This document shows, one piece after another, positions 5,919-53,796 of a stretch of 54,335 nt of DNA. Under the pieces are notes generated by a model. It saw only the letters and a program-made list of their open reading frames with translations, was not told the origin of the DNA and did not search any database. This DNA is from Acidimicrobiales bacterium. Lineage in GTDB: Bacteria; Actinomycetota; Acidimicrobiia; Acidimicrobiales; Iamiaceae. The stretch is from the NCBI GenBank assembly GCA_020439555.1, contig JAGQSN010000095.1, positions 1-54,335 of the forward strand, given 5' to 3'. Both the position numbers and the translations under genes were made by a program. Numbering within the stretch: position 1 is the first letter of the stretch; each line of letters begins with the position of its first letter.

Positions 5919-6740
5919 GTGACCGGCGTGGAAAACGTTCCGTCCGGATCGCCGGGGATCGTGGTGGAAGCCGTCGTCGCACCGTTTCGGCAACGACCCA
6001 AGGCGCGACACCGATCCATAAAGGTCACGCCGTCATCGGTTGCCACCGACCGTGAGGACTTTCCGATCTACATCGGAGATCACGTGGACCACGGTGCGGG
6101 CGCCTTCGAGGCGATAGCGGCTGGACTCGGTCTCCCGCAGTTCGCCCGAGGCGAGCTGTACGCAATGGTCGAGCGGGCCGACTCACTGATCGTCGGATAC
6201 GAGGTACGCCCGGATGGTTCGGAGCGTCGCAAGCTCTATCTGGAGTTTCGTGAGGGCATTCGCGATGAACGTGGCGGGAACGTTCTCGTCCATGAGGCCC
6301 GCAAGTGGGAAGTGGCGCGTCCGTCCTCCGTGTCGACCGCCCGCTACTTCGGCCTCCGAGCTTCCGACCTGGGTTCTGCGTCGCGTCTCGGATGCGTCCT
6401 GTCGGCGGCCGCCTCACCCCTCGTGGATGGCTTCGGAAGACTGCTGGATCGGCTGTGGGCTGGTCATGACGACCATTCGTTCTGGCCCGTACTTTTCGTG
6501 CAGGAGTCGGAAGGAGAGCGAAGTTCTGTCGACGTCGACGCCGTGGGCTCCGGCCTCGACGTCGCAGCGGCCTTCGAGTTGGCCGCCCGTGCGATCGGCA
6601 TCTGGCCAACGGCAGGTGATGCGACGGATGCGGTGGCGGCGGTCGGGAACCACCGGCTCGACCGGATCGGTTTCGGTGTGGACCGAACCGGCGAGCATTT
6701 CGTCACCTTCTTCCACCGAGCGCCGCTCGAGGAAGGGTGA
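5919..6740 (+). CDS. Hypothetical protein (possible ABBA-barrel-like fold)
   Basis: 273-aa ORF in operon position between wzc and the JmjC genes. Strand-like motifs IVGYE, RKLYLEF, HEARKW, RSSVDV, IGFGVDR and FVTFFH. Confidence 0.7.
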   Translation: MTGVENVPSGSPGIVVEAVVAPFRQRPKARHRSIKVTPSSVATDREDFPIYIGDHVDHGAGAFEAIAAGLGLPQFARGELYAMVERADSLIVGYEVRPDGSERRKLYLEFREGIRDERGGNVLVHEARKWEVARPSSVSTARYFGLRASDLGSASRLGCVLSAAASPLVDGFGRLLDRLWAGHDDHSFWPVLFVQESEGERSSVDVDAVGSGLDVAAAFELAARAIGIWPTAGDATDAVAAVGNHRLDRIGFGVDRTGEHFVTFFHRAPLEEG

Positions 6741-6749
6741 CCCGTTGCG

Positions 6750-9452
6750 ATGAGGACGACATCTCCGAGCAGCCGGACGCTCGTATGGTCTCGACCGATT
6801 GACGCCACCGACTCGTTTCGACCTCTCCTCCGTTCGGAACCGTCGGAAGCGATGTTGGCGGCGGCCCGAGAACGCAGGCGTGGCGCGTCGACCGCAGCCC
6901 TGAGTCGCTGGCTCGAAGGAATCGACCTCGCGGCGGTCATGCGATCTCACCGCGATCCTGTGCCGGTCAGGGGAAAGCTGACTGCGGCGGGATTCGATGC
7001 ATTCGATGCAGAGGGTGCCGTCAGTTCGTTCCTCGCGTCGCACCATCTCGGTGACCCGACGCTTCCGCCGGGGGATCAGCGCCTCAAGCACGCCCGTGAC
7101 GGTCAGGACCGAAATCTCGCTCCGACGCCGGAGATGACGCTGCCACGGACATCGAAGTACGGGACGCGGCGGTGCAGTCCGGCGGCGGTCGTCGAGGCCT
7201 TGGCGACCGGTACGTCGTTCTCGATCGCGTCGATGGACGAGTCGATCCGTTCGCTGGGTGAGGTGTGCGCAGTGGTCGAGTGCGTCGCAGGCACACGAAC
7301 AGGCGCGCTCGGTTATCTGAGCGGTCCCGGCGCGATCGGCTGGGGACCTCATTTCGACGACCACAACGTGCTGGTCGTGCAGATCGTCGGCTCGAAACGC
7401 TGGTCGCTCCTGGAGCCCGTCGAGTCCCGGATGCAACTGCCCTACTCGCCCTACAGGGTGTCCGCGGATGTCTGGGACTCGGCAACGATGGAGCCGGGCG
7501 ACGCGGTGTTCATTCCACGAGGGTGGGGTCACAGCGTTGTGGGCGGCGAGTCCGGCTCGTTCCACTTGACGTTCCCGTTGAGCGTCGTGACCGCGGGGAG
7601 GGTGCTGGCAACGGTCACGACGTCGCCCAACAAGGCGAGCCTTGTCGGAGATGACATTCCCCCCGGAGCCAGGGCGGAACTGGGTCCGTTCATCGCCTCC
7701 TTGTCATCCAGGTCCGTCGAAGGGGCCGTGAACGTGGTCGCGGCTCATCGGCCGGGCCGCTGCTGGAACTCCTTCTCGGAGCTGTACAGGTTCCGTCGCC
7801 AACTCGTGGAGGGAGGACGGCCGGACGGTGACGTGACGTTCGAGATATCGGCGTCGTGTTCTCCGGTGGCCCTGGACTTCCCGGAAGACGAGTGGTCGAT
7901 CGTGGTCGCGATCGGCGGAACCGTGTTCGGTGTCGCCCGGTCCCTCGTTCCGGCGCTCGCTGCGTTGATGGTCGGTCCCGTCGGCTGGGATGACTTGATG
8001 GGGACGGTCGGAGGGCGGACCGGGATCTCCGATTTGCTCGTGGCGTTGTTGGATGCGGACGTGCTCCAACTGAACCCGGACCGTTCGCTCGGGCGGAGCA
8101 GCGTGGTCGATCACCGGTCCCGGTCGCGCTTCGATCTTCCGGCTGCGGACCGACTGGACGAACCGACCCTGGTCCAGATCGGTCCCGAGCCATGGCCGAC
8201 CCGTACGGTTCGAGGTCTGAACGGATCCGACGAATGGGAGGCGCAACTCATCTCTGCCCTCGAGAACGGTGACCGTGGGGCGAGGGAGACGTTGCGATCG
8301 CACATCGAAGGGTTCGATCTTTTCGAGGAACTCAGCCGGACCAGGTCCCCCCGACTGGCTCGCGGGCGTCTTGGCCGACACGCGCCTGCGTCGCTACGTG
8401 GACCTAGCTCCGTCGACGAGTTCATCGCCGGTCACGATGCGGCGGGCGCAAAGCTGGTTGTTGCGTCCGACTCGAACCCGTTGAACCAACGGGCTCCCGA
8501 CACGGTCCGATCGGTCGCTTACAGCGTATACAGCCCGGAAAAGATCAGCCCTGGTCGGCTGTCTGCTTTGATCGACCGATCGGTCACGGCGATCATCCTC
8601 GGGATCGACGAATCGATCGCCGAGATCGCCGAATGGGTCGGACTGCTGGAGCGTGTCGCGAGACGGCGTTCGGGTGCCAACGCCTACATCAGTTCCGGCG
8701 AAGCTCCGGGTTTCGGTAGCCACTGGGACGACCACGATGTGTTGATCATTCAGTTGTGCGGTACGAAGGGGTGGGAGGTATACGAACCGGTGGAGCGAAG
8801 TCCGATTCGACCGACCTCCCCCGAAGACGTGTCGAGTCGGCTCGTCTGGGCCGGTGACGTCCACACCGGAGATGTCATGTACGTACCTCGGGGCTGGGGC
8901 CACCGAGTGACCGGATCGGACTCGTTGAGCATCCACCTGACTTTCCCGTTGCGGGCGGTGAGCGCAGCGATGATCGCCGAGACGGCTCTTTCGACGGTCC
9001 AAACAGGCGTTGCCGATATTCCTCCCGGCAGTGGCAGGTGGGACGTTCAACTCGACTCCGAGCGGGTCCGGCGCTGCGTGGAAGAGGGACTGGCCTACTG
9101 GCGATTCCGTGCTCCTCCGCGTTGCCATCAAGACCTGTGGGCAGCGTCGTCGTTCGCCGCTCGTGGCGCTGGTGCCTCCACGCCGGCTGAGATCCGTTGG
9201 GCAGCCTGCACCGGACTCGGCGTGGTGAACACGGAAGCTGCACCTGGCAGACGGACCCTCGTGGCAGGTGGTCGGACGATCGACGTCACAGAGGACGCAG
9301 GTGCTGTGCTGGTCACGCTCCTCGACGGTGAATGGCACGCAATCCAGGATCTGACCGTGCACCCCGACCGACGCTCCGTCGATGACCTGTTGCGCCGCCT
9401 CGCTGCGGTGGGACTTGTCGAATTGCGGGCCCCACTGGGGGCTGAAGGTTGA
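6750..9452 (+). CDS. Tandem double JmjC/cupin (ROX/YcfD-like) Fe(II)/2OG hydroxylase
   Basis: Domain 1: GWGPHFDDHNVLVVQIVGSKRW...PGDAVFIPRGWGHSV. Domain 2: GFGSHWDDHDVLIIQLCGTKGW...GDVMYVPRGWGHRV. Each is followed by a winged-helix-like segment. Confidence 0.9.
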   Translation: MRTTSPSSRTLVWSRPIDATDSFRPLLRSEPSEAMLAAARERRRGASTAALSRWLEGIDLAAVMRSHRDPVPVRGKLTAAGFDAFDAEGAVSSFLASHHLGDPTLPPGDQRLKHARDGQDRNLAPTPEMTLPRTSKYGTRRCSPAAVVEALATGTSFSIASMDESIRSLGEVCAVVECVAGTRTGALGYLSGPGAIGWGPHFDDHNVLVVQIVGSKRWSLLEPVESRMQLPYSPYRVSADVWDSATMEPGDAVFIPRGWGHSVVGGESGSFHLTFPLSVVTAGRVLATVTTSPNKASLVGDDIPPGARAELGPFIASLSSRSVEGAVNVVAAHRPGRCWNSFSELYRFRRQLVEGGRPDGDVTFEISASCSPVALDFPEDEWSIVVAIGGTVFGVARSLVPALAALMVGPVGWDDLMGTVGGRTGISDLLVALLDADVLQLNPDRSLGRSSVVDHRSRSRFDLPAADRLDEPTLVQIGPEPWPTRTVRGLNGSDEWEAQLISALENGDRGARETLRSHIEGFDLFEELSRTRSPRLARGRLGRHAPASLRGPSSVDEFIAGHDAAGAKLVVASDSNPLNQRAPDTVRSVAYSVYSPEKISPGRLSALIDRSVTAIILGIDESIAEIAEWVGLLERVARRRSGANAYISSGEAPGFGSHWDDHDVLIIQLCGTKGWEVYEPVERSPIRPTSPEDVSSRLVWAGDVHTGDVMYVPRGWGHRVTGSDSLSIHLTFPLRAVSAAMIAETALSTVQTGVADIPPGSGRWDVQLDSERVRRCVEEGLAYWRFRAPPRCHQDLWAASSFAARGAGASTPAEIRWAACTGLGVVNTEAAPGRRTLVAGGRTIDVTEDAGAVLVTLLDGEWHAIQDLTVHPDRRSVDDLLRRLAAVGLVELRAPLGAEG

Positions 9453-10600
9453 GCACGGTCGAGGGTGTGACGGTCGCGGACCTTCCGGCGTTGGCAGACG
9501 TCCGGCTACCGGATCCGGCCAGATCGGAATTGGAGGCCGTGATGGCGGCGTCGAACGAGCGTCGATTGCGCCTCGCCCGGGAAGGTTGCCTCGTAGGGCT
9601 TCCCGAAGTCGGAGTCGATGCGTGGCGGGACGGCAAGGACGTCCAGCCCGCGATCACTTCCGTGACAGAGATGTCCGGATTCTCGATGGATCTCGTGACC
9701 GAAGCGTGCCTCGTCACTCATGCTGCGCACGTGGTCCCATCGGACCCGGACACGGACGCCGTGGAAGTCGGCAACGTCGCCGATGCCGGACGTGCGATCG
9801 AGGCGGGTCAGGTGATCCGATTGCTGCACGGCGCGGATCTCTTGCCGGCTGTCGGAGCACTGGCCGACGACCTCGTCGCGTGGCTCTGGGCACGTTGCGA
9901 CGTGGAGCTGTCGCTCGCAACGGCTCCTTTCGACGGGCTCGGGCTCTGGCGGGACAGTGATGTGATCGTGATTCCTCTCCTCGGGGCACTGCACGTCTCA
10001 CTCGTCGGGCCCACGAGGTCCGCCCCTGGCCCGAACGATCCCCCGAAGGGGCCGCCCATCTGGACGGGCATGGTCTCCCGATCGACTGCGTTGCGCCTGC
10101 CCCGGGGTTGGGGCTTCGTCGCATCGGCGCCGAGCGAGGTCGCATGGGCCGAGATCACCGTCCGCCGACAACGTGGTTCCGACGTCGCCCGTTTCATCGC
10201 CGACCGGGCGCCGTTCCATGTGGCCTTCCGGGAGGACGCTCCGTTCTCGCTCGACGCGGTCGACCCTGCACCGGATTCGATCTTCGGTTCGCCCGACGGT
10301 CTGCGGGACCGACTCGTCGAACTCGACCTGGATAGCCTCGCCACGATGGCCGCCGCGGACTGGAGGGCTCGACTCGCTCGCGCGACACCCGAATCGCTCG
10401 CCCGAGTGTTGGGTGGTCCGACAGGGGCGTTCGATGACTCCCTCGGTGGTCTGATGGTCGTCGATCGCCTCCCTCCCAACTCCGAGCAACTGCGAGATCA
10501 CGAGTGTGCTGTCGCTGGTGGTGGCCTCGTCGTACGGGGGCTCCCGTCGCAGCTGGCTGCCCTGCTCGAATCCGATTCCGTGGGCGAGCCCGGGAGTTGA
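9449..10600 (+). CDS. Degenerate JmjC/cupin paralogue (metal ligands lost)
   Basis: LWRDSDVIVIPLLG aligns with HWDDHDVLIIQLxG, and LPRGWGF aligns with IPRGWGH. TTGA overlap with the upstream gene. Confidence 0.75.
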   Translation: MSTVEGVTVADLPALADVRLPDPARSELEAVMAASNERRLRLAREGCLVGLPEVGVDAWRDGKDVQPAITSVTEMSGFSMDLVTEACLVTHAAHVVPSDPDTDAVEVGNVADAGRAIEAGQVIRLLHGADLLPAVGALADDLVAWLWARCDVELSLATAPFDGLGLWRDSDVIVIPLLGALHVSLVGPTRSAPGPNDPPKGPPIWTGMVSRSTALRLPRGWGFVASAPSEVAWAEITVRRQRGSDVARFIADRAPFHVAFREDAPFSLDAVDPAPDSIFGSPDGLRDRLVELDLDSLATMAAADWRARLARATPESLARVLGGPTGAFDDSLGGLMVVDRLPPNSEQLRDHECAVAGGGLVVRGLPSQLAALLESDSVGEPGS

Positions 10601-11898
10601 GTCGGTTGGGTGAACAACTGGACGGAAACCTCATCTCGGTCGAGACAGGGCTTCCGCTCCCACACGTCCGCCCCCCGCGGTCCGACGGAGCCACGTGGGA
10701 GAGGATCCTGCTCACCTCCTCGGAGACAGCGGTCGCGGACTCGATGCATCGGCTCGAGGCCCGAATGCCGATCCACGCGCTGTTGGCGGCCGAGTGGGCA
10801 ACGGTGCCGACCTCCGTCGAGATCGACGATTGGTTCGGCGGCGTGGAGCATTGGGAATTGATCGACACGCTGCTCGGCGTCGGACACGTTCCGTCCCGGA
10901 GGATCCTCGTGTGCGACGGATCCGATCTGGTCGCTCCCGAAGCGATCCCCGCCGATCCGCTCGCCTTCGACGTCGAACGACCGAACCTCCCTTGGCTGAT
11001 GAACCATGCGACTTCGGGTGGTGGGTTCCTCCTCTCGGAGGTCGACCTCGTGGACCAGGGTGTCGGCCGCAACCACGAGGACCTGGACAGGGTCACCCTG
11101 GCTCGGACGCGCTGCGACCTCGGAGTAGTGGGGGAGGGGGCAGTACTGCACCAGCCACACGACAACGCGGCGAGGATCGTGATGGCGATCGATCGTCCTG
11201 TCCTCGTTCAGACCCACGCGGCGCCGGGCGATGGTCACTCGGCACCGCTCCCGACGAGTCACCGTGTCGAGCCTGGTACCGGTCTTCTGGTCCCCATGGG
11301 TCGCGGATGGCGTGTCAGTGGAGACGGCGCCGGTGCACTCGTGTCGATGATCGTCGTTCCGCGCTGGCGGGTCGTCGATCTGGTCGAGGAGATCGAGTTC
11401 GAGTCCCTCTTCTGGCCGATGCTGCGCGCCGACGTACCGTCGGATCTCGACGAACCGATCCTCTCCTACAGCGGAAGTGTTCTGGTCGACGGCTTCGACC
11501 GGGCCGCGGAGTCGATATGCGGTGAACTCGCGCTGGCCAACATCACGGCCCGGAGGCGTGCGCGAATGCAGGCGCGCTGGTCGACGCGACTGTCTGTCGC
11601 TGCTGGCTTGTTCGGTGTATCGCTGGCGGTGGACCCGGAGGTGCGTTGTCCGTTGCCGGGCGGGCTCCAGGTTGCTTCCGTGTCGACGGACACAGAGCCC
11701 GTCCTCTACGGCGCAGGCCGTCGCTACAGGGTGGACGCAGCGGCCGCGGCGGCTGTGGCGCTGCTCAGCGACGGTCGGGTTCACACTCGTTCCGAGGTTC
11801 TGGGCTTCGCGCCTGACGGTCTCGATCCATCCATCTGGAGTTCGGGGTTGATCCAGGAAGCGATGGGCTGCGGGATCGTCGAGGTGGTCAGGACATGA
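10597..11898 (+). CDS. Degenerate JmjC/cupin paralogue with C-terminal winged-helix domain
   Basis: VEPGTGLLVPMGRGWRV aligns with LEPGMFVSIPRGWAHDV. LRADVPSDLD resembles FREDAPFSLD of the upstream paralogue, and the C-terminal RCPLPGG...LYGAG...LLSDGR...GIVEVV matches the downstream one. TTG 10597 overlaps the upstream TGA. Confidence 0.7.
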   Translation: MSRLGEQLDGNLISVETGLPLPHVRPPRSDGATWERILLTSSETAVADSMHRLEARMPIHALLAAEWATVPTSVEIDDWFGGVEHWELIDTLLGVGHVPSRRILVCDGSDLVAPEAIPADPLAFDVERPNLPWLMNHATSGGGFLLSEVDLVDQGVGRNHEDLDRVTLARTRCDLGVVGEGAVLHQPHDNAARIVMAIDRPVLVQTHAAPGDGHSAPLPTSHRVEPGTGLLVPMGRGWRVSGDGAGALVSMIVVPRWRVVDLVEEIEFESLFWPMLRADVPSDLDEPILSYSGSVLVDGFDRAAESICGELALANITARRRARMQARWSTRLSVAAGLFGVSLAVDPEVRCPLPGGLQVASVSTDTEPVLYGAGRRYRVDAAAAAAVALLSDGRVHTRSEVLGFAPDGLDPSIWSSGLIQEAMGCGIVEVVRT

Positions 11899-13190
11899 CT
11901 CTCGAACCGCTGGCACCCCTCGATCCTCTCGGCGAACTCCGGCCGTCGGAGGAGCGCGATCCGATCGCTCGCACTCTCGAGACCGCTCGTCTGCGAGGAG
12001 TGTCGGACAGCGCACGGGTGTTGAGCGAACTGCTGTCCGGCTGCGACATTTCCGAGTCCGTGCAGAGGACCGACGGCGGGACGGTGCAGATCGGTTCTCT
12101 CGCATCCGGGTTCGCGGACGTGTTCGACCCGTGGCAGATCCTCGACGGTCTGTTCGGTTCGGGAGGCGTGGACGGCCTCAAGGTGTCGGTCGTGAGGGAA
12201 CGGGCGTCGTCACCGTTGGGGAACATCGACGACGCGGTGAGTAGTCGACCGGACGCACCCTGGGTGGTCCCCGTCGGTCGGGTCATGGATGCCTTGAGCC
12301 AGGGGTTCACTGTCGTGCTCGACGGTATGGACCGTCGCAACCGCTTGCTGCGCCGATTGTCCGAGCACCTGGCACGAGCCTTTCAGTGTCCCGTGAACAT
12401 AAACGGTTACTTGAGCCTTCGTCCGGACCCTGGATTCGGGGTCCACTGGGACGACCACGAGGTCATCATCATCCAACTCCTGGGTCGCAAGCACTGGAAG
12501 ATCCACCAGCCCGTCACGCTCTCCCCGACAGGCACCACCCATCCCGTCAACGAAGCTGGAGACCTTGCCTGGGAAGGCGATCTCGAACCGGGGATGTTCG
12601 TCTCGATTCCCCGGGGGTGGGCACACGACGTGTCGGGCATGGACGAGCTGACCTTCCACCTGACCCTCACGATCCCTCGCCGGAACATCTCCCGCGTCAT
12701 CCGGTCGAGCATCGAAATGAACTCCTCGGACGCCAGGGCCGTGACACTCGTCGACGGCGGAGATCCACCGCTGGGATTCGTTCTCGACAGCATTCGCGAG
12801 AACTTTCGTGGCGTCATCGCCCGCGACCGGGCCTCATTGGCAGCGGTTTCATGTCAGATCCCGTCGGCTTTGTTCCGGGCTCTCGACCAGGAAGCCGCGG
12901 ATCCTCACCTCGCGGTCCGGAGTCCGTTGCCCGGAGGTGGCACGCGCTGGCGGGACGAACACGGTGAATCTGTCCTGTTCGCCGGCGGAGGTCATTTCCG
13001 GGTGTCCGACGGGTATCTGTCAGTTCTGGCAGAACTTCTCGACGGCAGGACACGCACGGTGCAGGAGATCGAGGCCGCCTCACCCGAACCCGCGACGGTG
13101 GTCCGCTCCGTGGTCGCCGGCGCACTCCGGGTAGGTCTCCTGGAGGTCGTCGATGATCCGACGACCTGGGGGATCGTCCGAGCGGAGTAG
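11895..13190 (+). CDS. JmjC/cupin (ROX-like) Fe(II)/2OG hydroxylase
   Basis: NINGYLS..GFGVHWDDHEVIIIQLLGRKHWKI...IPRGWAHDV..FHLT, followed by a C-terminal winged helix; ATGA overlap. Confidence 0.92.
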   Translation: MTLEPLAPLDPLGELRPSEERDPIARTLETARLRGVSDSARVLSELLSGCDISESVQRTDGGTVQIGSLASGFADVFDPWQILDGLFGSGGVDGLKVSVVRERASSPLGNIDDAVSSRPDAPWVVPVGRVMDALSQGFTVVLDGMDRRNRLLRRLSEHLARAFQCPVNINGYLSLRPDPGFGVHWDDHEVIIIQLLGRKHWKIHQPVTLSPTGTTHPVNEAGDLAWEGDLEPGMFVSIPRGWAHDVSGMDELTFHLTLTIPRRNISRVIRSSIEMNSSDARAVTLVDGGDPPLGFVLDSIRENFRGVIARDRASLAAVSCQIPSALFRALDQEAADPHLAVRSPLPGGGTRWRDEHGESVLFAGGGHFRVSDGYLSVLAELLDGRTRTVQEIEAASPEPATVVRSVVAGALRVGLLEVVDDPTTWGIVRAE

Positions 13191-13191
13191 C

Positions 13192-14496
13192 TCAGTCGGT
13201 GCCGAAGGCGGCGTCGATGCTCCCGACGAGCGTCGGGAGAGAACGCGTCGTCCGGTACTCACGCTGGACAGTCACCGAACCATGCAGACGCCGTATCGCA
13301 TGCACGATGGACGATCGGTCGTCACTGTCACCTCCGGGCGACGTGCGCGCGAACAGCGCGACCTCGTGCATCGGGAGCTCGGCTTCGGGTCGGTTGCCCC
13401 GAGCCCACAGACCTCGAACCGGGAACCGGTCGAAGGTGACATCGTCGAGCGATGTCATGTCCGCCCGGGGGACTGCCACGTGATCCGAGGTGGCGTCGAG
13501 GTAGACCCGCGGCGCGGGGATGAGGCTTATGCCGTGGCGGGCGAGTTGGCGCAGCATTCCGCGCGGCTGTTCCAGGGAGGAGCGCGGTGCGAGGACGACG
13601 GTTCCGTTCTTCTCGAGGGCGTGAACTCTCAGTTCGATGTGGTCCGGTGGCGGTGCTAGATCGGCGTGCAGGAGCAGCAACCTGCTGATCCCATCCCGTA
13701 TCCGGTCTCTCTCTACGGTGCTCGCGACCAGAACTCCGCCCTCGTCGTACAGCCCGAAACGGCGTGGTCGACCAGGGGCGTCGTCCACCGTGACGTAACA
13801 AACCGTCGGACCTCGCTCCAGTTCACGGTCGACGGCAGTCGAACGCCGCGCCCACTCGGCGATCTCGGCGTCGGTGGTGCGCACGCCGTTGGTTCGCCCG
13901 CCGACCGGGACACGGACGAGGTGGGCCTCGCGGTCCAGTTGAAGCTTCCGCCCGAGGCACGAGGTCGGCGGGATCATCTCCAGCGGCGAAGCCTGCCCAT
14001 AGCTCACCGCCGCCGATTCCTCCTTGGTGAGGTTGAACTCGGTCACGAGGTACTTGACACCGTCCACGACCTCGAAGCTCTCGACGTAGTCGCGCTGATC
14101 AGTGGCTGGGGCCAGCGCGTCCCAGGCCGAACGCACCTCGTCGAGACCGGAGGCGAGCCCGTTGAGGGCCAGGTCGAGCGCGAGCGAGGTGACGTGTCGT
14201 CTCGCTGTCTCCGGCCCTACTCCGGTCGCCTCGATGATGTCGGTCGTCAGCTCAGCGAGGGTTACGGAGCCGTCGAGGAGTTCCCAAAGGGTCGCCGTGA
14301 GTCGTGGGAAGACGAAGGGTGGGTGATCCCGCGCCCACACGATGCTGCCGTCCGATCCGAACCGCACTGTGACGACATCGGGATGGCGGATGGGCCGGGC
14401 GTGCTCGGCTGCGCGGTGCAGCGTGACGTCGAGATCCGAAGTGGCCGAGGGTAGACCCCCTGCTGGAACGGTCACCTCAAAGGTGGGAGGAGACAC
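13192..14496 (-). CDS. PqqD/RRE domain fused to degenerate HprK-like domain
   Basis: N-terminal RHPDVVTVRFG...TATLWELLDGSVTLAELTTDI...LALDLALNGL is PqqD-like. C-terminal LRVHALEKNGTVVLAP resembles the HprK pre-P-loop strands but lacks GxSGxGKS. Confidence 0.75.
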   Translation of the reverse strand: MSPPTFEVTVPAGGLPSATSDLDVTLHRAAEHARPIRHPDVVTVRFGSDGSIVWARDHPPFVFPRLTATLWELLDGSVTLAELTTDIIEATGVGPETARRHVTSLALDLALNGLASGLDEVRSAWDALAPATDQRDYVESFEVVDGVKYLVTEFNLTKEESAAVSYGQASPLEMIPPTSCLGRKLQLDREAHLVRVPVGGRTNGVRTTDAEIAEWARRSTAVDRELERGPTVCYVTVDDAPGRPRRFGLYDEGGVLVASTVERDRIRDGISRLLLLHADLAPPPDHIELRVHALEKNGTVVLAPRSSLEQPRGMLRQLARHGISLIPAPRVYLDATSDHVAVPRADMTSLDDVTFDRFPVRGLWARGNRPEAELPMHEVALFARTSPGGDSDDRSSIVHAIRRLHGSVTVQREYRTTRSLPTLVGSIDAAFGTD

Positions 14497-14534
14497 GGGT
14501 GCCTCGCGTGCGGCCGACCGTCGGCAGGAGGTGC

Positions 14535-15119
14535 TCAGTTGCAGACGCAGGTCATGTTGATTCGAAGTTGACCGTCAGGGTCGTCCTGGTAGTAGCCGCC
14601 TCCACCCTGGCAGTCAGGTGTCGCCTGCTGAGTCCCGTTCGAGGTGAAGTTGAACGTCCCGCCGCCGTTACGGAAGCGGAAAGAGCCGCCGTTGTTGCAG
14701 TTGCCGGCAACGTTCACGGTGCAGGCCTGGTTGGCGGAGTTCGTGAATCCGTTGACGGTCAGGTTGACGATGCCGTTGTCGTCGTTGACGCTGCCGGAGA
14801 TCGCTCCGTTGAGGGTGAACTTTCCGCCGACGTTGGACGGACCGAAGTTCCAAGTACCGCAGCAGTTGTTGCCCCAGCACTCCGTCGATCCCACAGAGCA
14901 GTTGTTCGAGTTCTTGGTGATCTGGGATATCGACCCGCCGCTGCAGGAGGCCGCGGCGGCGTAGTCGGGTGCCACCGACAGTCCCTCGATCCGTGGCGCC
15001 GTCCAAACGGCTGCCGCGGCGGCGCCGCCGAATGCCGCCTTGATCGCGGCACGCCTCGAAACGGCCTGCTCGTCGTTCGTTCGTTCGTTCGAATCGTCGG
15101 CGGTTGGTGTTTCAGCCAT
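14535..15119 (-). CDS. Tat-signal, Asn/Cys/Gly-rich secreted protein; putative modification substrate (194 aa)
   Basis: ATG at 15119 with a GGAGG upstream. Leader SRRAAIK..AAAAAVWTAPRIEGLSVAPDYAAAA; the 137-aa mature part has 10 Cys and 23 Asn by manual count. Confidence 0.85.
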   Translation of the reverse strand: MAETPTADDSNERTNDEQAVSRRAAIKAAFGGAAAAAVWTAPRIEGLSVAPDYAAAASCSGGSISQITKNSNNCSVGSTECWGNNCCGTWNFGPSNVGGKFTLNGAISGSVNDDNGIVNLTVNGFTNSANQACTVNVAGNCNNGGSFRFRNGGGTFNFTSNGTQQATPDCQGGGGYYQDDPDGQLRINMTCVCN

Positions 15120-15564
15120 CGACCAGTCCCTCCTCCAGGTCGTCGAGCACACGCTCGGCGAACATCTCCGGGTTGTCGACCACGTACGTGGCCAGGATTT
15201 GACGTTGGGGCGAGATGAGGTACGCGATGCGGTTCGCGTAGGCGGCAGTCCCGTCCTCGCCTGCCACGCCGTAGGCAACCCCGACCTTCCGATCGAGGTC
15301 GCTGAGCAGGGGGAATCCGAGGTCGTACTTGTCGGCGAAGGCACGAAGGTCTTCGACCGGATCGAACGATGCACCGAGCACTCGGCATCCGAACCCGTCG
15401 AACACCTCGATGTGGTCCCTGAGTCCCTGCGCCTGTGCGACGCACCCAGGTGTGTCCGCTTTCGGGTACCAGTAGAGCAGCGTCAACTGGTCCCCCAAGG
15501 ACTGGTTCTTGCCCTGCTGGTCCAACAGCGTGAAGTCGGGCGCGCGCTCCCCCACGTCGAGCAT
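15112..15564 (-). CDS. bcp: Peroxiredoxin, BCP/PrxQ type
   Basis: VGERAPDFTLLDQ, YWYPKADTPGC (PxxxTxxC), VLGASFD, FPLLSD and NRIAYLI. ATG at 15564. Confidence 0.9.
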   Translation of the reverse strand: MLDVGERAPDFTLLDQQGKNQSLGDQLTLLYWYPKADTPGCVAQAQGLRDHIEVFDGFGCRVLGASFDPVEDLRAFADKYDLGFPLLSDLDRKVGVAYGVAGEDGTAAYANRIAYLISPQRQILATYVVDNPEMFAERVLDDLEEGLVDG

Positions 15565-15654
15565 GGTCCGCACCGTAGTCGCGACCCGCCACTCGGACAA
15601 CGGACCGAGCGCAGAATGTACAGAGATAGTTCGAAAGGCCCAAGCGGCCATTAC

Positions 15655-16551
15655 TCAGAACGTGCAGAACAATGCCTGCTTCACCTGTCTGTCCAGGGTG
15701 TAGTCGATGCCGATGTCGAGTTTCAGGTGAGCCAGCCGGTCTGTTCGCTCTGCGGCGAAGCGGTGAAGCTCGGAGAATGCAGCTGATCGTCTCAGGAAGC
15801 GGTCGGATCCGCTGAAGGGAACCCCATCGAAGTAGACGCCTTCGCTCTGGGGCTTCACCGCGTAGTGGAAACCTTCGAACTCGTCGGGGAGGAAGAGTTC
15901 GCCGTCGGTCTTCGTGATGTGGATCGAGGATCGTAGGGCGTTGTGGACGTCGCTCAGGGTTGCAGTCGGGTAGTGGGCGTAGATGTTGCGGTGGTCGATA
16001 CCGTCGGCCGTCAGGCGGTAGGAGAGCCCGCCGGGGCGGGTCAGTGGCCCGAAACCTGTGTAGAAGTTGATCGAGTCGATCGCTTCGATTCCGTCGAGGT
16101 TCTGCGCTGTGACGTCGAGCGACACGACGTCACAGCGTTCGAGCGGGGCCCGGTGGATAGCGGCGTCGATTCCCAGACCTTGGTCGATCGCTGCGAGGAA
16201 CGTTTCGATGCCTTTGCTGCCGTCGGTCAAGCGGTACCAGTACAGCTCCCATGACAGTTCATCTCCGTGCGCCACGACGGAAGCCACGATCCTGTCGTTG
16301 CCGACAGATGACCTCAACGTCGTGATCACATCGCCCCATCGGTGCATCCGGCCCGGGTCGCAGGCGAGGAGGAACGCAGTGCTCGACAGAGAGCCTGTCG
16401 GTGCAGGATCGAGGCCTACCTCCGTCGCTTCGCGCAGCAGGAATCCCGTACGAGCAGGTCTCCCTTCGGTCGCAGCGAGACACTCGCAGAGTTCGTCCAA
16501 AGTGGCTGTCGGGTCGGGTCGGGTCGTAGCCGTCCCGTCCTTCTCACTCAT
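15655..16551 (-). CDS. Hypothetical protein (possible beta-barrel enzyme)
   Basis: 298-aa ORF overlapping the PhyH stop by 8 bp. Aromatic strand motifs WELYWY, VVSLDV, INFYTG, RNIYAHY, YAVK, GVYF and LDIGIDY. Confidence 0.75.
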   Translation of the reverse strand: MSEKDGTATTRPDPTATLDELCECLAATEGRPARTGFLLREATEVGLDPAPTGSLSSTAFLLACDPGRMHRWGDVITTLRSSVGNDRIVASVVAHGDELSWELYWYRLTDGSKGIETFLAAIDQGLGIDAAIHRAPLERCDVVSLDVTAQNLDGIEAIDSINFYTGFGPLTRPGGLSYRLTADGIDHRNIYAHYPTATLSDVHNALRSSIHITKTDGELFLPDEFEGFHYAVKPQSEGVYFDGVPFSGSDRFLRRSAAFSELHRFAAERTDRLAHLKLDIGIDYTLDRQVKQALFCTF

Positions 16552-17629
16552 CTGTCGCCGTTTCGATCTCGTCCACGAGATCGTGGAGCATCTCGACGGG
16601 TGGAGTCTGCGTGGTCCCGTCGAGGAGACCCCGCAGCGCTTCTTCCTCGATCCCGTCGAGCTGGCATTCGAAGTTGCGGGTCACGGGTCGTGACGGATTC
16701 CTGGAGTACAGGAGCGCGGGAGTCTCCTCGAGGAAGAACTGTTCGTCCACGTCGAACTGCAGGTAACCCGACTCCGTTCGGGCGAAGTGGACGAGGCTTC
16801 CCCCGCTTCGGTGGCACCACATTCCGACTGCCAGGCGTGGCGTCGCGGAGTTGTTGTCGAAGGACATGTGGATCAGACGGTTGTCCCAGATCGCAGCCTC
16901 GCCGGCCTTGAGCGGTACAGCGACCGACCTCGCGCGCAGTTCGTCACGGAACCGCAGCCAGGGCCAGATCGCCTTGGTGCCGCAGGGACCGCCGGGCAGG
17001 AGGTGCGAGCGTGGGACGACGCGGACCATGCCGTTGGAATCGGTGGCGTCGTCGAGTGCGACGTAGATGATGTAGGACCGATCCCCGCTGAGTTCGTCCA
17101 CGTACATCCAGTCGCGGTGCTCCTCGAGGGTCGACCTGTCGCCGCTGAACTTGGCGAGGTAGGTGTAGAGGAATGGGGTGAACCCTGACATCCAGGTTCG
17201 TTCCATCCCACCCATCTCTTCGTGCATGACCTTGCTGGCTTCACGGCGGAAGGTGAGGTCTGGCAGGAAGAAGTCGTTGTGGAAGCCCGTACGGTCGGCC
17301 GGAAATCGATCGAGGAAGAAGCCACGGAGTCGAGCACACGAATCCGAATCGAGTTGGATTCCGGGCAGCCTCACCCACCCTTCGCGTCGCAACACCTCGT
17401 CGAGAGCGGGGTCGTTGAGAACCCGATCTCCGTCAGGCCACTGGTCCCGCGACCGAACCGACGGGACCCATTCGGTCTCGGGAGACTGAGGTGACGTCTC
17501 GAATTGCCCTCGCATGATGAGCTCGTCTCGCTTCAACCACCGCGACGCCTCCACGGGGAGGTGCCTGGTGTTCGTCGTGGGCCGCAACCCTATTTCCCGT
17601 CGGATCGGTTCGTCGCCGCTGATCGACAC
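16544..17629 (-). CDS. Phytanoyl-CoA dioxygenase (PhyH) family Fe(II)/2OG dioxygenase
   Basis: REGWVRL, EHRDW (HxD), YVALDDATDSNG.VRVVPRSH, LKAGEAAIWDNRLIHMS and PRLA motifs. Start uncertain (17629 or 17515). Confidence 0.9.
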   Translation of the reverse strand: MSISGDEPIRREIGLRPTTNTRHLPVEASRWLKRDELIMRGQFETSPQSPETEWVPSVRSRDQWPDGDRVLNDPALDEVLRREGWVRLPGIQLDSDSCARLRGFFLDRFPADRTGFHNDFFLPDLTFRREASKVMHEEMGGMERTWMSGFTPFLYTYLAKFSGDRSTLEEHRDWMYVDELSGDRSYIIYVALDDATDSNGMVRVVPRSHLLPGGPCGTKAIWPWLRFRDELRARSVAVPLKAGEAAIWDNRLIHMSFDNNSATPRLAVGMWCHRSGGSLVHFARTESGYLQFDVDEQFFLEETPALLYSRNPSRPVTRNFECQLDGIEEEALRGLLDGTTQTPPVEMLHDLVDEIETATDE

Positions 17630-17665
17630 GGCAGGACTCGGATTAGGTCCGGGCGCATCAGGGCG

Positions 17666-18919
17666 TCAGGCTTCCCCCGCGACGAACCCGAGTTTCGTCA
17701 GGTCTTCGATCAGGCCCAGATCCGTCTCCTCGGGCCGCTTCGTACCGTCGAGATTCCTCCACACCTGCGTAGCCGAAGGGTTCAGGTGGGCGATCGAGCG
17801 ATCGGTTAGCCGGTACAGGACGGCCTCTTCGGCGACGACGACCGACACGACGTCGGCCGGCCGGTGAGGGTGAGGACCGGGCAGCGAAGGTGGGACCCGG
17901 AGGGGTTCTCCGCCTACGGGTGCCGGTGCTGTCGCCTCCATCAGCGCTGCGGCAGCTTCCCTACTGTCCCCGTACCGGATGGCGAGGGCAGGGACATGAT
18001 TGGCGAAGGACGCGAACGCGAAGAGGCAACCGGTTGGATCGGTCGTCACGTCGAAGGAGTTCTCCAGGCATGCCATCACGGACTGTGCAGGTCTGAGTGG
18101 AGTGATCTCGATAACCCGCTGCTGTTCGTCGTCCTCGTCGACTCGGTCGAGGACGACGAACAGCAGCGGCGTCGCGTCGACCGGGACCGTTGCCGTGGGC
18201 GGATGGAGCGATCGGAGCGAGAGGAGTCCCGGGCGCCTCATCGAGACCGGCCTCGGGGACGCAATGACTCGGTGACCGGTAACAGCGACCACCTCGTCGT
18301 TCACGATCCCCCCGAATCGGTCGAGTGCGAGCCCGAACGTGCTCTTGCCGCTCCCTGACGGTCCGGTCACGAGGACAGCCCCATCCTGGGTGAGGACCGT
18401 GGCTGCGTGCAGGTGGGGCCAGCCCGGTTCGGCGGTGAGCGTTCGATGCGTCAACCAGGGGAGGATCTGTTCGACGACGGCGTTCTCGTCGAGGAGATAG
18501 GTGCAACCTTCGACGATCAGTTCGACCGCGTCGCCGAGGTGACGGCACTCGATCACAGCGTCCACGCTTCGGCGGGTCTCGACGATGCTCGCGCCGAAAG
18601 CCCGCCGGAGCGGATCCAGTGCGGCCTCGTCGGCCGCTACGGGTACCTCGCCCCAGGACTGGAGGATCGAGTGCGTCGACGGCTTCGGGGGAACCGGACG
18701 CGCGGCGACTGCTCGCCGGCGCGCCTGGATGTGGCGCCACGGTCCGATGACGGGCGCGGCCAGGACCTTCTCGACGTTCCAGATCCGCTCCCCGAGCCGT
18801 CGGATCGCAGTGGAGGTTCCGGATCGATCGTGCGACGGAACGTCGTTCCCGGCTCCACGGTCGAGGCCTGGATCGAGTTCGCCGCTCCCACCTGTGGTGG
18901 TCTCCACGTTGGCTTCCAC
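17666..18919 (-). CDS. HprK-related kinase with C-terminal PqqD/RRE domain
   Basis: HLHAATV..GAVLVTGPSGSGKST and VNDEV kinase motifs. The C-terminal DVVSVVVAEEAVLY...HLNPSATQVWRNLDG...LIEDLTKLGFV is PqqD-like. Confidence 0.88.
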   Translation of the reverse strand: MEANVETTTGGSGELDPGLDRGAGNDVPSHDRSGTSTAIRRLGERIWNVEKVLAAPVIGPWRHIQARRRAVAARPVPPKPSTHSILQSWGEVPVAADEAALDPLRRAFGASIVETRRSVDAVIECRHLGDAVELIVEGCTYLLDENAVVEQILPWLTHRTLTAEPGWPHLHAATVLTQDGAVLVTGPSGSGKSTFGLALDRFGGIVNDEVVAVTGHRVIASPRPVSMRRPGLLSLRSLHPPTATVPVDATPLLFVVLDRVDEDDEQQRVIEITPLRPAQSVMACLENSFDVTTDPTGCLFAFASFANHVPALAIRYGDSREAAAALMEATAPAPVGGEPLRVPPSLPGPHPHRPADVVSVVVAEEAVLYRLTDRSIAHLNPSATQVWRNLDGTKRPEETDLGLIEDLTKLGFVAGEA

Positions 18920-19043
18920 GTGCTCGTTCCGTCAGGCGGTGTTTGAACCCTGCCAGATCGTAGTTGGAGCAGATGCGACGGTCATTGGACCGTGGAGCGG
19001 CGCTACCGAACAGCCACGTGCGGAATGAGCAGTCGGGGAGACG

Positions 19044-20084
19044 TCAGTTGAGGGTCAGATACACGTATCCGTCGACGCCGTGGTAGCCGTGCTCGTTCGT
19101 GCCGGCCGCGCCACCGTTGGACCCGGCCCGCGCCGTCACCGAACCGGTTACACCCAGCACGAACGCGGAGCCGCTTCCGCCGCCACCGCCACCGTCGTTG
19201 TTGCCGCCACCGGCGTCGCCGCCACCGCCGCCGCCGCCGCCCCAGTGGCCGCCGCCACCGCCGCCTCCGCCGCCGCTGTCGTCAGATCCATCGGACTGGC
19301 CCGCACCTCCGTTCCCGCCGGAGCTCTGTGTCCCTGCGCCACCGTCGTTGCTGTCGGAAGGCCAACCCGATTCACCTCCGGCGCCTCCGCTGGACGTCCA
19401 GCCGCCCCCGCCGCCCTTGCCGCCGTAGGTGATCTGACCGGCTCCGCCGGAGAGGCCGGCGGAGGCGTTGTTGTTCGCGATCGACGTGCTCAGGTTCGAG
19501 CCGCCGTAACCGCCGTGGTAGCCCGGATCGTCTCCGGAACCGCCGCCACCTCCGCCGCCTGGGGCGACGATGTTTATCGACGTCGAGTACGACAAGCGCG
19601 TCGCGCCGCCGCCGCCACCACCGGCTCCGGCGTTGCTCGGTCCGTCGGCGGCGTTGCCGCCCTTGGGGGAACCGGTTCCGCCGCTACCGGATGTGGACCC
19701 GATCCGGTCGGCGTTGCGGCCCTGCTGCCCGATGACGATGGTGAGGGTGTAGTAGCCGGCTCCGCCTGGTGCGGCGATGTCGCCCTCGAGTTCTGTGCCT
19801 TTCCCTCCGGCACCACCGCTGAGACCCGACTTCGTGCCGCTACCGCCGCCTCCGCCTGCGCCGCTGATGCGGAAGTGGACGCTCCGCGCCTTCGGAACCC
19901 CGACGGAATAGGTACCGGCCGCTGTGCGGCTCTATGGGAAGTCCGAGGTGGCGGCGGCAGCGGGTGATGCCAGGCTGTCGACGACAACGGGTGCCGCCCA
20001 CGCTGCGCCGGCGACCAGTGCCCCGGCTCGCAGGACGCGGCGACGTTCGACGCTCAGATCTGCGCCCGGTACTTCTTCCACCAT
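19044..20084 (-). pseudogene. Tat-signal glycine-rich secreted protein (346 codons) with one in-frame TAG at codon 51
   Basis: GGAGGG RBS and ATG at 20084, giving MVEEVPGADLSVERRRVLRAGALVAGAAWAAPVVVDSLASPAAAATSDFP*(19934-19932). The frame then stays open (SRTAAGTYSVGVP...ISGAGGGGG...TLTIVIG...GGGGGAT...) into the 19044-19595 ORF. Confidence 0.8.
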
Positions 20085-53187: not shown

Positions 53188-53270
53188 CCCACGGGTTGGA
53201 TTCGCGGCCTCCCGGGCGGGGCCGTCCTGGCTCCTTCGGGCGTGTCGTGCGCAACTAGAGTCAGTCGTTC

Positions 53271-53786
53271 GTGGAACTGACACCTACGGCCCTCATGGCC
53301 CACGCTCGCACCGAGGGCGGACGGCGCGCCATCCGGTACTCGGCGACGTCGGTCATCTGCGTCGGCGTCACCCAGGTGCTGCTCCTGGTGTTCCTCCTCG
53401 GTTTCGAGTGGAAGGGCACCCGGTCCAACCTGGCCGCCACGATGATCACGTCCGTCCCGGCGTTCGCCCTCAACAAGTACTGGGTCTGGGGCAAGCGGGG
53501 ACGGGCCCACATGCGCCGCGAGGTCATCCCGTTCTGGGCGTTCACCGTCGCCGGCTGGACGCTGTCGACGTTCATGGTCGCCCTCGTCCAGCACGTCGGT
53601 GAACCCCAGTCGGCCACCCGGACCATCGCCGTCATGGGCGCGAACATCGCCGGTTTCGGTCTGCTGTGGGTCCTGAAGTACCTGTTCCTCGACAAGATCA
53701 TGTTCGGCCCCGAACACCACACCCCCTACGACGAGGACATCGAACGCGAAGAGGCCGGCCTGCCGCCGCTTCTCGACGAGGTCTGA
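53271..53786 (+). CDS. GtrA family membrane protein
   Basis: Four TMs; IRY, AFALNKYWVW and KYLFLDKIMF. Confidence 0.85.
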   Translation: MELTPTALMAHARTEGGRRAIRYSATSVICVGVTQVLLLVFLLGFEWKGTRSNLAATMITSVPAFALNKYWVWGKRGRAHMRREVIPFWAFTVAGWTLSTFMVALVQHVGEPQSATRTIAVMGANIAGFGLLWVLKYLFLDKIMFGPEHHTPYDEDIEREEAGLPPLLDEV

Positions 53787-53796
53787 GACTTCCCTC

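What the first reader, a model, noticed from the sequence alone, without database searches (positions are those of the whole stretch)
5919..20084. Candidate undescribed RRE-guided modification system for Tat-exported proteins, embedded in a glycan locus
Seen: two convergent operons encode five JmjC domains, a PhyH dioxygenase, a kinase-PqqD fusion, a PqqD-pseudokinase fusion, a peroxiredoxin, two unknown proteins and two genes sharing an unusual Tat leader. No peptidase, radical SAM enzyme, YcaO or lanthipeptide synthetase is present. Established: PqqD/RRE domains bind leader peptides, JmjC enzymes hydroxylate protein residues, and Tat exports proteins after cytoplasmic maturation. Inference: the signal peptide doubles as a RiPP-style leader. 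Full-size proteins would be hydroxylated or phosphorylated in the cytoplasm, exported, and freed by signal peptidase, possibly with a link to the surrounding glycan pathway.
Basis: partly seen in the sequence, partly recalled or inferred. Interest (0 to 1): 0.92.

Follow-up and report, generated by a model that had tools for sequence, protein, structure and literature searches.

The report
Address-tagged exported protein tailoring cluster
A conserved bacterial gene cluster pairs a small folded protein, whose predicted export signal also carries a known peptide-docking motif, with hydroxylase, kinase and prenyltransferase-like enzymes that likely modify it before secretion, an enzyme set we found in no paper searched.

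Summary
The cluster is real and conserved. Its 194-aa protein has a twin-arginine leader whose WxAP–AxA stretch is better conserved than the mature domain (83% vs 46%) and fits the published RRE-binding motif. Across Acidimicrobiales, 18 of 52 leader hits lie within 5 kb of PqqD (≤0.6 expected), and RRE–leader fusions are common (123 of 150 hits). The JmjC set goes with this leader subfamily (10 of 11 genes vs 0 of 43). Corrections: two of five JmjC domains lack iron ligands in every orthologue examined; both 'unknown' proteins are prenyltransferase-type barrels; JmjC tails are RRE-like; the second leader gene has a stop at codon 51; the glycan link is not conserved. Binding, export and chemistry are untested. 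The scan already noted the leader+PqqD+HprK core on other DNA (28 findings) but not the JmjC/prenyltransferase version. Closest published systems: linear polyphosphorylated peptides and bufferins. Verdict: new variant of RRE-guided modification.

The parts
5919..6740 (+). ABBA aromatic-prenyltransferase-fold protein 1 (273 aa); its likely orthologue in G261 is fused behind an RRE-like N-terminus
   Evidence: Atlas model TM 0.74 to tryptophan-DMAT clusters, feature score 0.91-0.96 to clusters with a minority of PF11468/PF19156 members; 28% global identity to the C-domain of L090:10680-12383, blastp E 1e-4; no Pfam/NCBIfam hit
6750..9452 (+). Tandem JmjC protein (900 aa); both domains keep HxD, K and distal H; each ends in a winged-helix/RRE-like domain
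   Evidence: PF08007 x2; motifs; C-terminal JmjC profile vs PqqD profile 73%, E 3e-5, reversed control E 0.41
9449..10600 (+). Degenerate JmjC paralogue without iron ligands (383 aa)
   Evidence: blastp to active paralogues E 1e-13 to 1e-4; ligands missing in 3 of 3 orthologues
10597..11898 (+). Degenerate JmjC paralogue without iron ligands (about 433 aa; TTG start overlapping the upstream stop)
   Evidence: hhalign full length to the active family 99.9%, E 2e-31; ligands missing in 4 of 4 orthologues; junction
11895..13190 (+). Intact JmjC hydroxylase of the NO66/MINA53/YcfD type (431 aa)
   Evidence: PF08007 2e-16; family profile hits NO66 2e-20, MINA 7e-19, YcfD 3e-9
13192..14496 (-). N-terminal PqqD/RRE fused to a domain that is probably a dead HprK-like kinase (no Walker A)
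   Evidence: PF05402 2.5e-5; conserved family; weak hhalign to HprK families
14535..15119 (-). Predicted substrate: 194-aa protein, twin-arginine leader plus 137-aa Gly/Asn/Cys-rich beta-sandwich (24 Gly, 23 Asn, 10 Cys)
   Evidence: 26 relatives at E<=1e-3; alignment; AF2 mature part pLDDT about 80-96; no clear PDB match, best Z 7.3; composition
14949..15059 (-). Leader residues 21-57: S-RR-x-x-I-K, Gly/Ala hydrophobic stretch, W-x-A-P-x-I (RRE-type motif), subfamily motif S-x-x-P-D-Y, A-x-A predicted cleavage site
   Evidence: Sequence; identity to relatives 67% (21-39) and 83% (40-57) vs 46% mature and 13% N-extension
15112..15564 (-). PrxQ/BCP-type peroxiredoxin whose stop overlaps the substrate's start
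   Evidence: PF00578 7.5e-27; close relatives next to leader genes in L003, L011, L013, L016, L027, L031, L034
15655..16551 (-). ABBA aromatic-prenyltransferase-fold protein 2 (298 aa)
   Evidence: AF2 model (pLDDT 57): Foldseek top hits KgpF, DciF, LimF, PirF, PagF, E 5e-6 to 2e-5; VIA rows 1-18 all ABBA prenyltransferases, Z 9.0-13.5, next row 6.6
16544..17629 (-). PhyH-type Fe/2-oxoglutarate dioxygenase with HxD and distal H
   Evidence: PF05721 2.4e-14; sequence
17666..18919 (-). HprK-like kinase with His, Walker A and DE signature, plus a C-terminal RRE-like domain
   Evidence: Alignment; profile hits HPr kinase structures 2e-8 and TbiB1 RRE 0.059
19044..20084 (-). Second leader gene (Gly-rich, 346 codons), interrupted by TAG at 19932-19934 in this population
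   Evidence: Translation; TAG kept in X1 and X5, TGG in X7; intact relatives L005, L039, L042
4056..5876 (+). Wzc-type tyrosine autokinase of the flanking glycan locus (context; same strand, 42 bp before 5919)
   Evidence: TIGR01007 3.5e-28

Best explanation
The cluster is likely a leader-guided tailoring line for a small folded protein that is predicted to be exported by Tat: RRE-type domains would bind the WxAP stretch of its twin-arginine signal and bring it to the neighbouring enzymes before export. Shown: gene order, intact catalytic motifs in three JmjC domains, the PhyH and the kinase, RRE or RRE-like domains on the kinase, its partner and the JmjC tails, prenyltransferase folds, and conserved linkage. 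Inferred: the discrete-looking RRE of 13192-14496 and the RRE-like tails hold the leader and delay export; the active JmjC domains, probably paired with their dead paralogues as partner subunits, add hydroxyl groups to side chains (Asn is the best guess); the kinase, probably with its dead partner, phosphorylates Ser/Thr near the mature start; the peroxiredoxin helps form disulfides in the cytoplasm; the two barrels, where present, may prenylate an aromatic residue; signal peptidase I removes the leader at AxA, which explains the missing peptidase. The product would be a disulfide-bonded surface or secreted beta-sandwich. The glycan locus is a frequent neighbourhood, not a required part.
For: Leader segment 40-57 is 83% identical across 21 relatives vs 46% for the mature domain. 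WxxPx[IV] fits the RRE motif [Y/W]xxPx[L/V/I/F/A] (PMC13381572; PMC12710340). 18 of 52 leader hits in 20 other genomes lie within 5 kb of a PF05402 hit, at most 0.6 expected, in 13 of 20 genomes. All 4 contigs of this genome with PF05402 carry a leader gene or a cut Gly-rich relative. In-frame RRE+leader fusion in G102; 123 of the best 150 relatives keep the RR..PxV..P..AxA pattern and 145 of 150 a PqqD domain; 2 of 4 tested pass TIGR01409. Same four-gene JmjC operon with kinase and RRE fusion in L010 and L011, part of it in L012, L016, L034; a parallel cluster in complete genome G261 with two leader genes, JmjC pairs, PhyH, both barrels and peroxiredoxin. JmjC within 10 kb for 10 of 11 subfamily leader genes vs 0 of 43 others; these JmjCs form one clade, 100/100. 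Sister JmjCs sit beside small Asp-rich ORFs in 15 of 24 loci, so the family looks peptide-directed. A JmjC RiPP hydroxylase is published (BipG, PMC12707348). TatC is in the genome; lasso B2 and SipW were not found in this 77%-complete genome.
Against: No biochemical test. 34 of 52 leader hits have no PF05402 within 5 kb and 30 of 47 PqqD clusters have no leader hit within 5 kb; of 17 such clusters fetched, one gave a weak leader hit. G227 has a clade JmjC with HprK and Wzc but no detected leader. The 194-aa leader misses TIGR01409. In the RRE fusions the twin arginines lie about 90 residues from the start and the Trp is mostly Ala/Val/Leu. A winged-helix tail is a general feature of YcfD/NO66-type enzymes (recalled), so the RRE-likeness of JmjC tails (73%) need not mean leader binding. 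In bufferins the signal peptide proved dispensable for modification (PMC11626156). Asn richness (median 0.13 vs 0.055) fails in L037 (0.02, 0.05) and is confounded by kinship. The barrels were not found in the stretches of L010 and L011 and occur in G033 without leader or JmjC. Seven of the nine subfamily loci were found with the window's own family.
Confidence: 0.6

Rival explanations
1. The RRE domains are signal-peptide chaperones that guard folding and Tat export (like dedicated Tat proofreading chaperones, recalled); the exported protein is not covalently tailored, and the oxygenases act on other substrates.
For: Many leader genes have only an RRE or nothing nearby; RRE-leader fusions carry Pro/Thr or Cys-rich tails; dead enzyme copies are common; masking of a signal by an RRE partner is proposed for bufferins (PMC12452194).
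Against: RRE or RRE-like domains are fused to catalytic domains (kinase, JmjC, barrel in G261, thioredoxin-like in L004), and the enzyme set changes with the leader subfamily.
Confidence: 0.13
2. The leader is a RiPP leader that only looks like a Tat signal; the modified protein stays in the cell or membrane-anchored, or leaves by the MsbA-like transporter at 28507.
For: No TIGR01409 hit for the window protein; internal RR in fusions; LPP clusters use an MsbA-like transporter (PMC13381572).
Against: RR, hydrophobic stretch and AxA are kept across the family; mature parts are Cys-rich beta proteins, one with an LPxTG-type sorting motif; TatC present.
Confidence: 0.12
3. The oxygenases, barrels and kinase make or decorate a small molecule or the surrounding glycan, and the leader protein is a carrier, lectin or bystander.
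For: Same strand and 42 bp from wzc; glycan genes on both sides; best VIA hits are small-molecule prenyltransferases; PhyH enzymes often take small substrates (recalled).
Against: L010, L016 and L090 have the cluster with no Wzc or glycosyltransferase in the stretch held; the JmjCs belong to a protein-hydroxylase family; RREs bind peptides.
Confidence: 0.09
4. It is a conventional RiPP: only a short core next to the leader is modified and cut out by outside proteases; the folded domain is a follower.
For: Some family members are short peptides (L056, L075); the TAG allele would give a 50-aa leader-only peptide.
Against: The 137-aa mature part is predicted to fold as one domain with conserved Cys spread to the last residues; no peptidase in the cluster.
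Confidence: 0.06

Closest known systems
Linear polyphosphorylated peptides (LPP) of Bacillota (Popov et al. 2026, PMC13381572; abstract, passages and section 6 read)
   Same: RRE, HprK-like kinase, [Y/W]xxP leader motif, precursors up to 200 aa with conserved N-terminus and variable rest, signal-peptidase-type release, location in capsule loci.
   Different: LPP has a dedicated SipW-type peptidase, a discrete RRE and an NTP transferase, and the text has no word starting with 'Tat'; here a twin-arginine leader, fused RREs, no dedicated peptidase, and JmjC, PhyH, peroxiredoxin and prenyltransferase-fold genes.
Bufferins and related MNIO-modified proteins (PMC11626156, PMC12452194; passages read)
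   Same: RiPP-type modification of a small folded Cys-rich protein with an export signal instead of a classical leader; RRE-type partner; general export and signal peptidase.
   Different: Sec, not Tat; MNIO and DUF2063, none found here; signal dispensable for modification in the E. coli test.
HPr-rel-A system (TIGR04352/TIGR04353) and paeninodin-type lasso tailoring kinases
   Same: HprK-related kinase with PqqD-family domain.
   Different: Kinase scores 31.9 bits vs cut-off 200; no lasso B2 found; the family has no described substrate that my searches found.
Ribosomal oxygenases YcfD/NO66/MINA53 and the RiPP JmjC BipG (PMC12707348; passages read)
   Same: PF08007 fold and HxD...H site; side-chain hydroxylation of proteins or precursor peptides.
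   Different: Five copies with two conserved dead paralogues, own N-terminal extension, separate clade tied to the leader genes.
Cyanobactin prenyltransferases (LynF/PagF/KgpF/LimF) and DMATS/NphB barrels
   Same: ABBA barrel; top Foldseek hits are peptide prenyltransferases.
   Different: About 10% identity, no Pfam hit, active site not mapped; come as a divergent pair, one RRE-fused in G261.

Membership tests
LPP (Popov 2026) | SipW/archaeal-type signal peptidase in the cluster | tested here: not met
   None in the window; TIGR02228 not found in the 77%-complete genome
LPP (Popov 2026) | RRE plus HprK-like kinase | tested here: met
   (RREs are fused, not discrete)
LPP (Popov 2026) | NTP_transf_5 nucleotidyltransferase in the cluster | tested here: not met
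   Not in the window; present at two other RRE loci of the genome
LPP (Popov 2026) | Leader consensus YxxPxVLxHQxIxFETxxS | tested here: not met
   Only the [Y/W]xxPx[I/V] core is shared
Lasso peptide system | B2 peptidase and macrolactam cyclase | tested here: not met
   PF13471 not found in the genome; three asparagine-synthase-like genes score 24-138 bits on NF033535 vs cut-off 525
Bufferin / MNIO RiPP | MNIO enzyme and DUF2063 partner | tested here: not met
   No such Pfam hit among the window ORFs scanned
RRE-dependent RiPP in the broad sense | RRE domain with a co-occurring precursor bearing a recognition motif | tested here: met
RRE-dependent RiPP in the broad sense | Leader-dependent covalent modification of the precursor | not testable with these tools
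   Needs co-expression and mass spectrometry
Tat substrate | S/T-RR-x-x-hydrophobic-K, hydrophobic stretch, AxA | tested here: inconclusive
   Pattern present (consensus recalled) but TIGR01409 not hit; 2 of 4 fusion relatives pass it
YcfD/NO66-type JmjC hydroxylase | PF08007 fold with HxD...H and 2OG lysine | tested here: met
   Met for three domains, not for the two dead paralogues
ABBA aromatic prenyltransferase | PT barrel fold | tested here: met
   298 aa; 273 aa: Atlas model only
ABBA aromatic prenyltransferase | Diphosphate-binding residues and prenyl transfer | not tested
   Model confidence too low (pLDDT 57) to map the site
HPr-rel-A system | TIGR04352 and TIGR04353 over cut-off | tested here: not met
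   31.9 vs 200 bits; TIGR04353 not hit

The most novel reading that the evidence does not exclude
A Tat signal peptide serves as a universal RiPP-style address for whole folded proteins, and in this branch an assembly line built from enzyme/pseudo-enzyme pairs (JmjC with dead JmjC, kinase with dead kinase, two prenyltransferase barrels), most carrying their own RRE-like domain, hydroxylates, phosphorylates and prenylates a disulfide-rich surface protein before export.
Probability: 0.3. Interest if true: 0.9.

Novelty: new variant of a known kind. Interest (0 to 1): 0.7.

Why it matters
If true, it extends RRE-guided chemistry from peptides to Tat-exported folded proteins and gives the uncharacterised PqqD/HprK cassettes a testable substrate class. 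The leader sits on very different mature domains (about 10 to 1000 aa), so it could be a portable tag for modifying and secreting proteins. It also offers a new JmjC clade with conserved pseudo-enzyme partners and a new pair of prenyltransferase-fold proteins, with a complete genome (G261) to work from.

Tried and rejected
Co-folding of the 13192-14496 RRE with the leader: no verdict, score 0.28 vs mark 0.32. Fold searches with the 194-aa model: no Foldseek match at E<=0.001, best VIA Z 7.3 among generic beta-sandwiches. Word-index searches found no relative of the 273- and 298-aa proteins; A6 found only its seeds in 301 order genomes, A7 nothing in 300 other phylum genomes or viral contigs; PDB sequence searches with A6, A7, A3 gave nothing usable; the two barrels do not align to each other by profile. 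The RRE fusion protein alone found 1 of 40 relatives. Promoter/terminator scan at chance level. One RNA run has 8 short contigs on the stretch, mostly over the kinase and PhyH genes; DNA carry-over not excluded, so not used. First tree attempt captured 5 rows only, redone (the motif filter kept 31 domains and missed some loci). Rejected: lasso system, LPP membership, five active JmjCs, a required glycan link, a frameshift for the second leader gene. Paper searches with no relevant hit: 0 papers; 3 unrelated; scan look-ups with no hit.
Full report
Setting. The window is contig C281 of a 3.2-Mb, 77%-complete genome. A same-genus genome (G021) has a 15,441-bp contig matching the record titled Aquihabitans sp., so the organism is probably an Aquihabitans-like member of the Acidimicrobiia. 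The best holders among public runs are labelled activated sludge.

Observation. Two convergent gene runs end 1 bp apart at 13190/13192, with 4- or 8-bp overlaps at five junctions. The plus run follows wzc (4056-5876) after 42 bp. Pfam and NCBIfam confirm JmjC, PqqD, PhyH, peroxiredoxin and an HprK-related kinase, and give no peptidase, radical SAM, YcaO or lanthipeptide hit among the ORFs scanned. Three asparagine-synthase-like genes further right score far below the lasso cyclase cut-off, two of them best on the EPS amidotransferase model. Lasso B2 and SipW were not found in the genome; TatC was.

JmjC genes. There are five JmjC-fold domains of the NO66/MINA53/YcfD type. Both domains of the 900-aa protein and the 431-aa protein keep HxD, K and H. 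The 383-aa and 433-aa proteins lack these ligands here and in all orthologues aligned (3 of 3, 4 of 4), although the 433-aa family aligns full length to the active family (99.9%). Dead/active neighbours recur in L010, L012 and L034, which suggests partner subunits (inference). The last 92 residues of 16 of these proteins align to a PqqD profile (73%, E 3e-5; reversed control E 0.41). PMC12710340 (abstract, passages, sections 6 and 7 read) notes PF08007 proteins with RRE-like folds and bacterial homologues in RiPP-like contexts.

Kinase pair. The 417-aa kinase keeps His, Walker A and DE and has a conserved RRE-like tail. The 434-aa protein has an N-terminal PqqD; its C-domain aligns weakly to HprK families across the Walker A region, which is lost (probability 22-28%).

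The two unknowns. Both look like ABBA prenyltransferase barrels. For the 298-aa protein an AF2 model of modest confidence (pLDDT 57) gave cyanobactin peptide prenyltransferases as top Foldseek hits, and all 18 top VIA rows were ABBA prenyltransferases (Z 9.0-13.5, next 6.6). For the 273-aa protein the Atlas model matches tryptophan-DMAT clusters at TM 0.74. The 298-aa protein has relatives in 2 of 300 other genomes of the order; in both places a 273-like sequence lies next to it, fused behind an RRE-like N-terminus in G261 (28% identity, E 1e-4) and in pieces in G033 (recognised by eye). Catalysis was not tested.

The leader proteins. The 194-aa protein has 25 relatives at E<=1e-3 besides itself. 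In 22 aligned members, residues 40-57 (WxAP to AxA) are 83% identical to the window protein, the twin-arginine and hydrophobic part 67%, the mature domain 46%, the N-extension 13%. The motif matches the RRE recognition motif [Y/W]xxPx[L/V/I/F/A] given in PMC13381572 and the W/Y/LxxP group of PMC12710340, where WxxP was validated for StsA. The mature part is predicted to be a well-folded beta-sandwich with no clear PDB match. The second leader gene has TAG at codon 51, kept in two runs of one study and TGG in one low-depth contig of another; intact relatives exist. It is probably a recent nonsense allele.

Linkage to RREs. The genome has 8 leader genes on 7 contigs; PqqD or HprK genes adjoin those on C141, C181, C281 and C338, and the remaining PqqD contig (C220) has a cut Gly-rich relative. 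In 151 genomes of the order, 22 have leader hits. Leaving out G000 and G160, 18 of 52 hits lie within 5 kb of a PF05402 hit (15 within 2 kb), against at most 0.6 expected from hit density, in 13 of 20 genomes; 17 of 47 PqqD clusters have a leader hit within 5 kb. One of the 52 (L086) looks like an ordinary Tat signal and was kept in that count. Kin are not independent. An in-frame RRE+leader fusion in G102 has 438 relatives at E<=1e-10; of the best 150, 145 have a PqqD domain and 123 the RR..PxV..P..AxA pattern.

Linkage to JmjC. The four-gene operon with kinase and RRE fusion recurs in L010 and L011, partly in L012, L016, L021, L028, L034, and JmjC plus other 2OG oxygenases in L014/L015. Complete genome G261, of another family, has two leader genes, two JmjCs each near a probable dead paralogue, HprK, an RRE fusion, PhyH, both barrels, a peroxiredoxin fusion and a Rieske oxygenase. 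Among leader genes with at least 8 kb of context and at least 60 mature residues, after dropping nine duplicate loci and L086, JmjC lies within 10 kb for 10 of 11 genes with the S-x-x-P-D/E-Y/F-A motif (8 of 9 loci) and 0 of 43 others; the window's broken second gene, not counted, would be one non-subfamily case with JmjC. Seven of the nine loci were found with the window's own family. From the enzyme side, none of 24 further JmjC loci has a leader gene; 15 have a small Asp-rich ORF beside the JmjC instead. In a tree of 31 active domains, 17 leader-linked ones form a clade (100/100) with two rows lacking a detected leader (G227; G042, contig end), apart from the Asp-rich-peptide group.

Glycan link. 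Wzc or a glycosyltransferase lies within 10 kb for 4 of 11 subfamily genes and 12 of 43 others (own profiles, no null). L010, L016 and L090 show none in the stretch held. LPP clusters also sit in capsule loci with unknown meaning. A link through an NTP_transf_5 enzyme acting in trans is possible (two copies elsewhere in the genome) but untested.

Mechanism. Most likely (0.6): RRE-type domains bind the WxAP stretch, hold the precursor in the cytoplasm and present it to the JmjCs (hydroxylation; Asn a guess from composition), the kinase (Ser/Thr; Ser58 is conserved), the peroxiredoxin (disulfides) and, where present, the barrels; Tat exports the folded product and signal peptidase cuts at AxA. 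All of these steps are inferred. My rough odds: functional RRE-leader link 0.85, Tat export 0.7, hydroxylation of the precursor 0.6, prenylation 0.3, direct glycan link 0.2.

Known systems and novelty. LPP (PMC13381572; abstract, passages, section 6) shares RRE, HprK, leader core, long precursors, signal-peptidase-type release and capsule loci, but fails membership on peptidase, nucleotidyltransferase and leader consensus. Bufferins (PMC11626156, PMC12452194; passages) share the idea of a modified, exported folded protein but use Sec and MNIO. BipG/PbsQ (PMC12707348, PMC12257519; passages) are JmjC-type RiPP hydroxylases. Searches found no paper on a twin-arginine leader with PqqD/HprK or on this enzyme set; the library lacks most subscription papers and I opened no supplements. 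The scan's earlier notes describe the leader+PqqD+HprK core in at least 25 genomes and pointed me to the LPP paper; none with JmjC was found. Verdict: new variant of RRE-guided modification, interest 0.7.

Noticed in passing
L114-L118, L120, L121, L123-L125, L128-L131, L135 (e.g. L128:8418-10919): A widespread Acidimicrobiia unit: small Asp/Gly-repeat peptide with a conserved acidic N-terminal stretch, a YcfD-type JmjC, and usually a conserved ~300-aa gene (sucrase/ferredoxin-like by recall; no NCBIfam hit). 15 of 24 JmjC loci have the peptide. Looks like its own RiPP-type hydroxylation system; one paper search found nothing.
   Followed up: partly
L065:9686-10261 and P0029-P0178: Large family of single proteins with PqqD/RRE fused in front of a twin-arginine leader and a variable Pro/Thr- or Cys-rich tail.
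   Followed up: partly
L090:1-18545 (G261): Larger sister cluster in a complete genome with several extra 2OG oxygenases, a Rieske oxygenase, a methyltransferase-peroxiredoxin fusion and an RRE-barrel fusion; left edge not fetched.
   Followed up: partly
L004:3831-4598 (G000:C181): PqqD fused to a thioredoxin/AhpC-like domain next to a 14-Cys leader protein; fits a redox step tied to the RRE.
   Followed up: no
L047:8794-10752: Leader protein with an LPxTG-type sorting motif that runs on in frame into a PqqD-like segment.
   Followed up: no
L003:1-2937 (G000:C168): Second wzc-peroxiredoxin-leader paralogue unit in the same genome; contig ends inside the leader gene.
   Followed up: partly
L012, L018, L019, L023, L026, L034: Two small conserved ORFs (about 88 and 100 aa) recur near subfamily leader genes in these loci but were not seen in the window.
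   Followed up: no
L119, L122 and L127: JmjC genes beside small possible precursor ORFs, with queuosine-like genes (L119, L122) or YcaO/TfuA-like genes (L127); labels by eye and recall.
   Followed up: no
window:15655-16551: The Atlas lists a 505-aa giant-virus cluster carrying Cupin_8/JmjC whose model matches this barrel (TM 0.68), a possible JmjC-barrel fusion.
   Followed up: partly
window:48178-50481 and 52926-53879: Long ORFs without Pfam or NCBIfam hit; the gene caller prefers the opposite strand there, so probably shadows.
   Followed up: no
window:26616-28328: Divergent asparagine-synthase-like gene (weak hits only) beside an MsbA-like transporter in the glycan locus.
   Followed up: no
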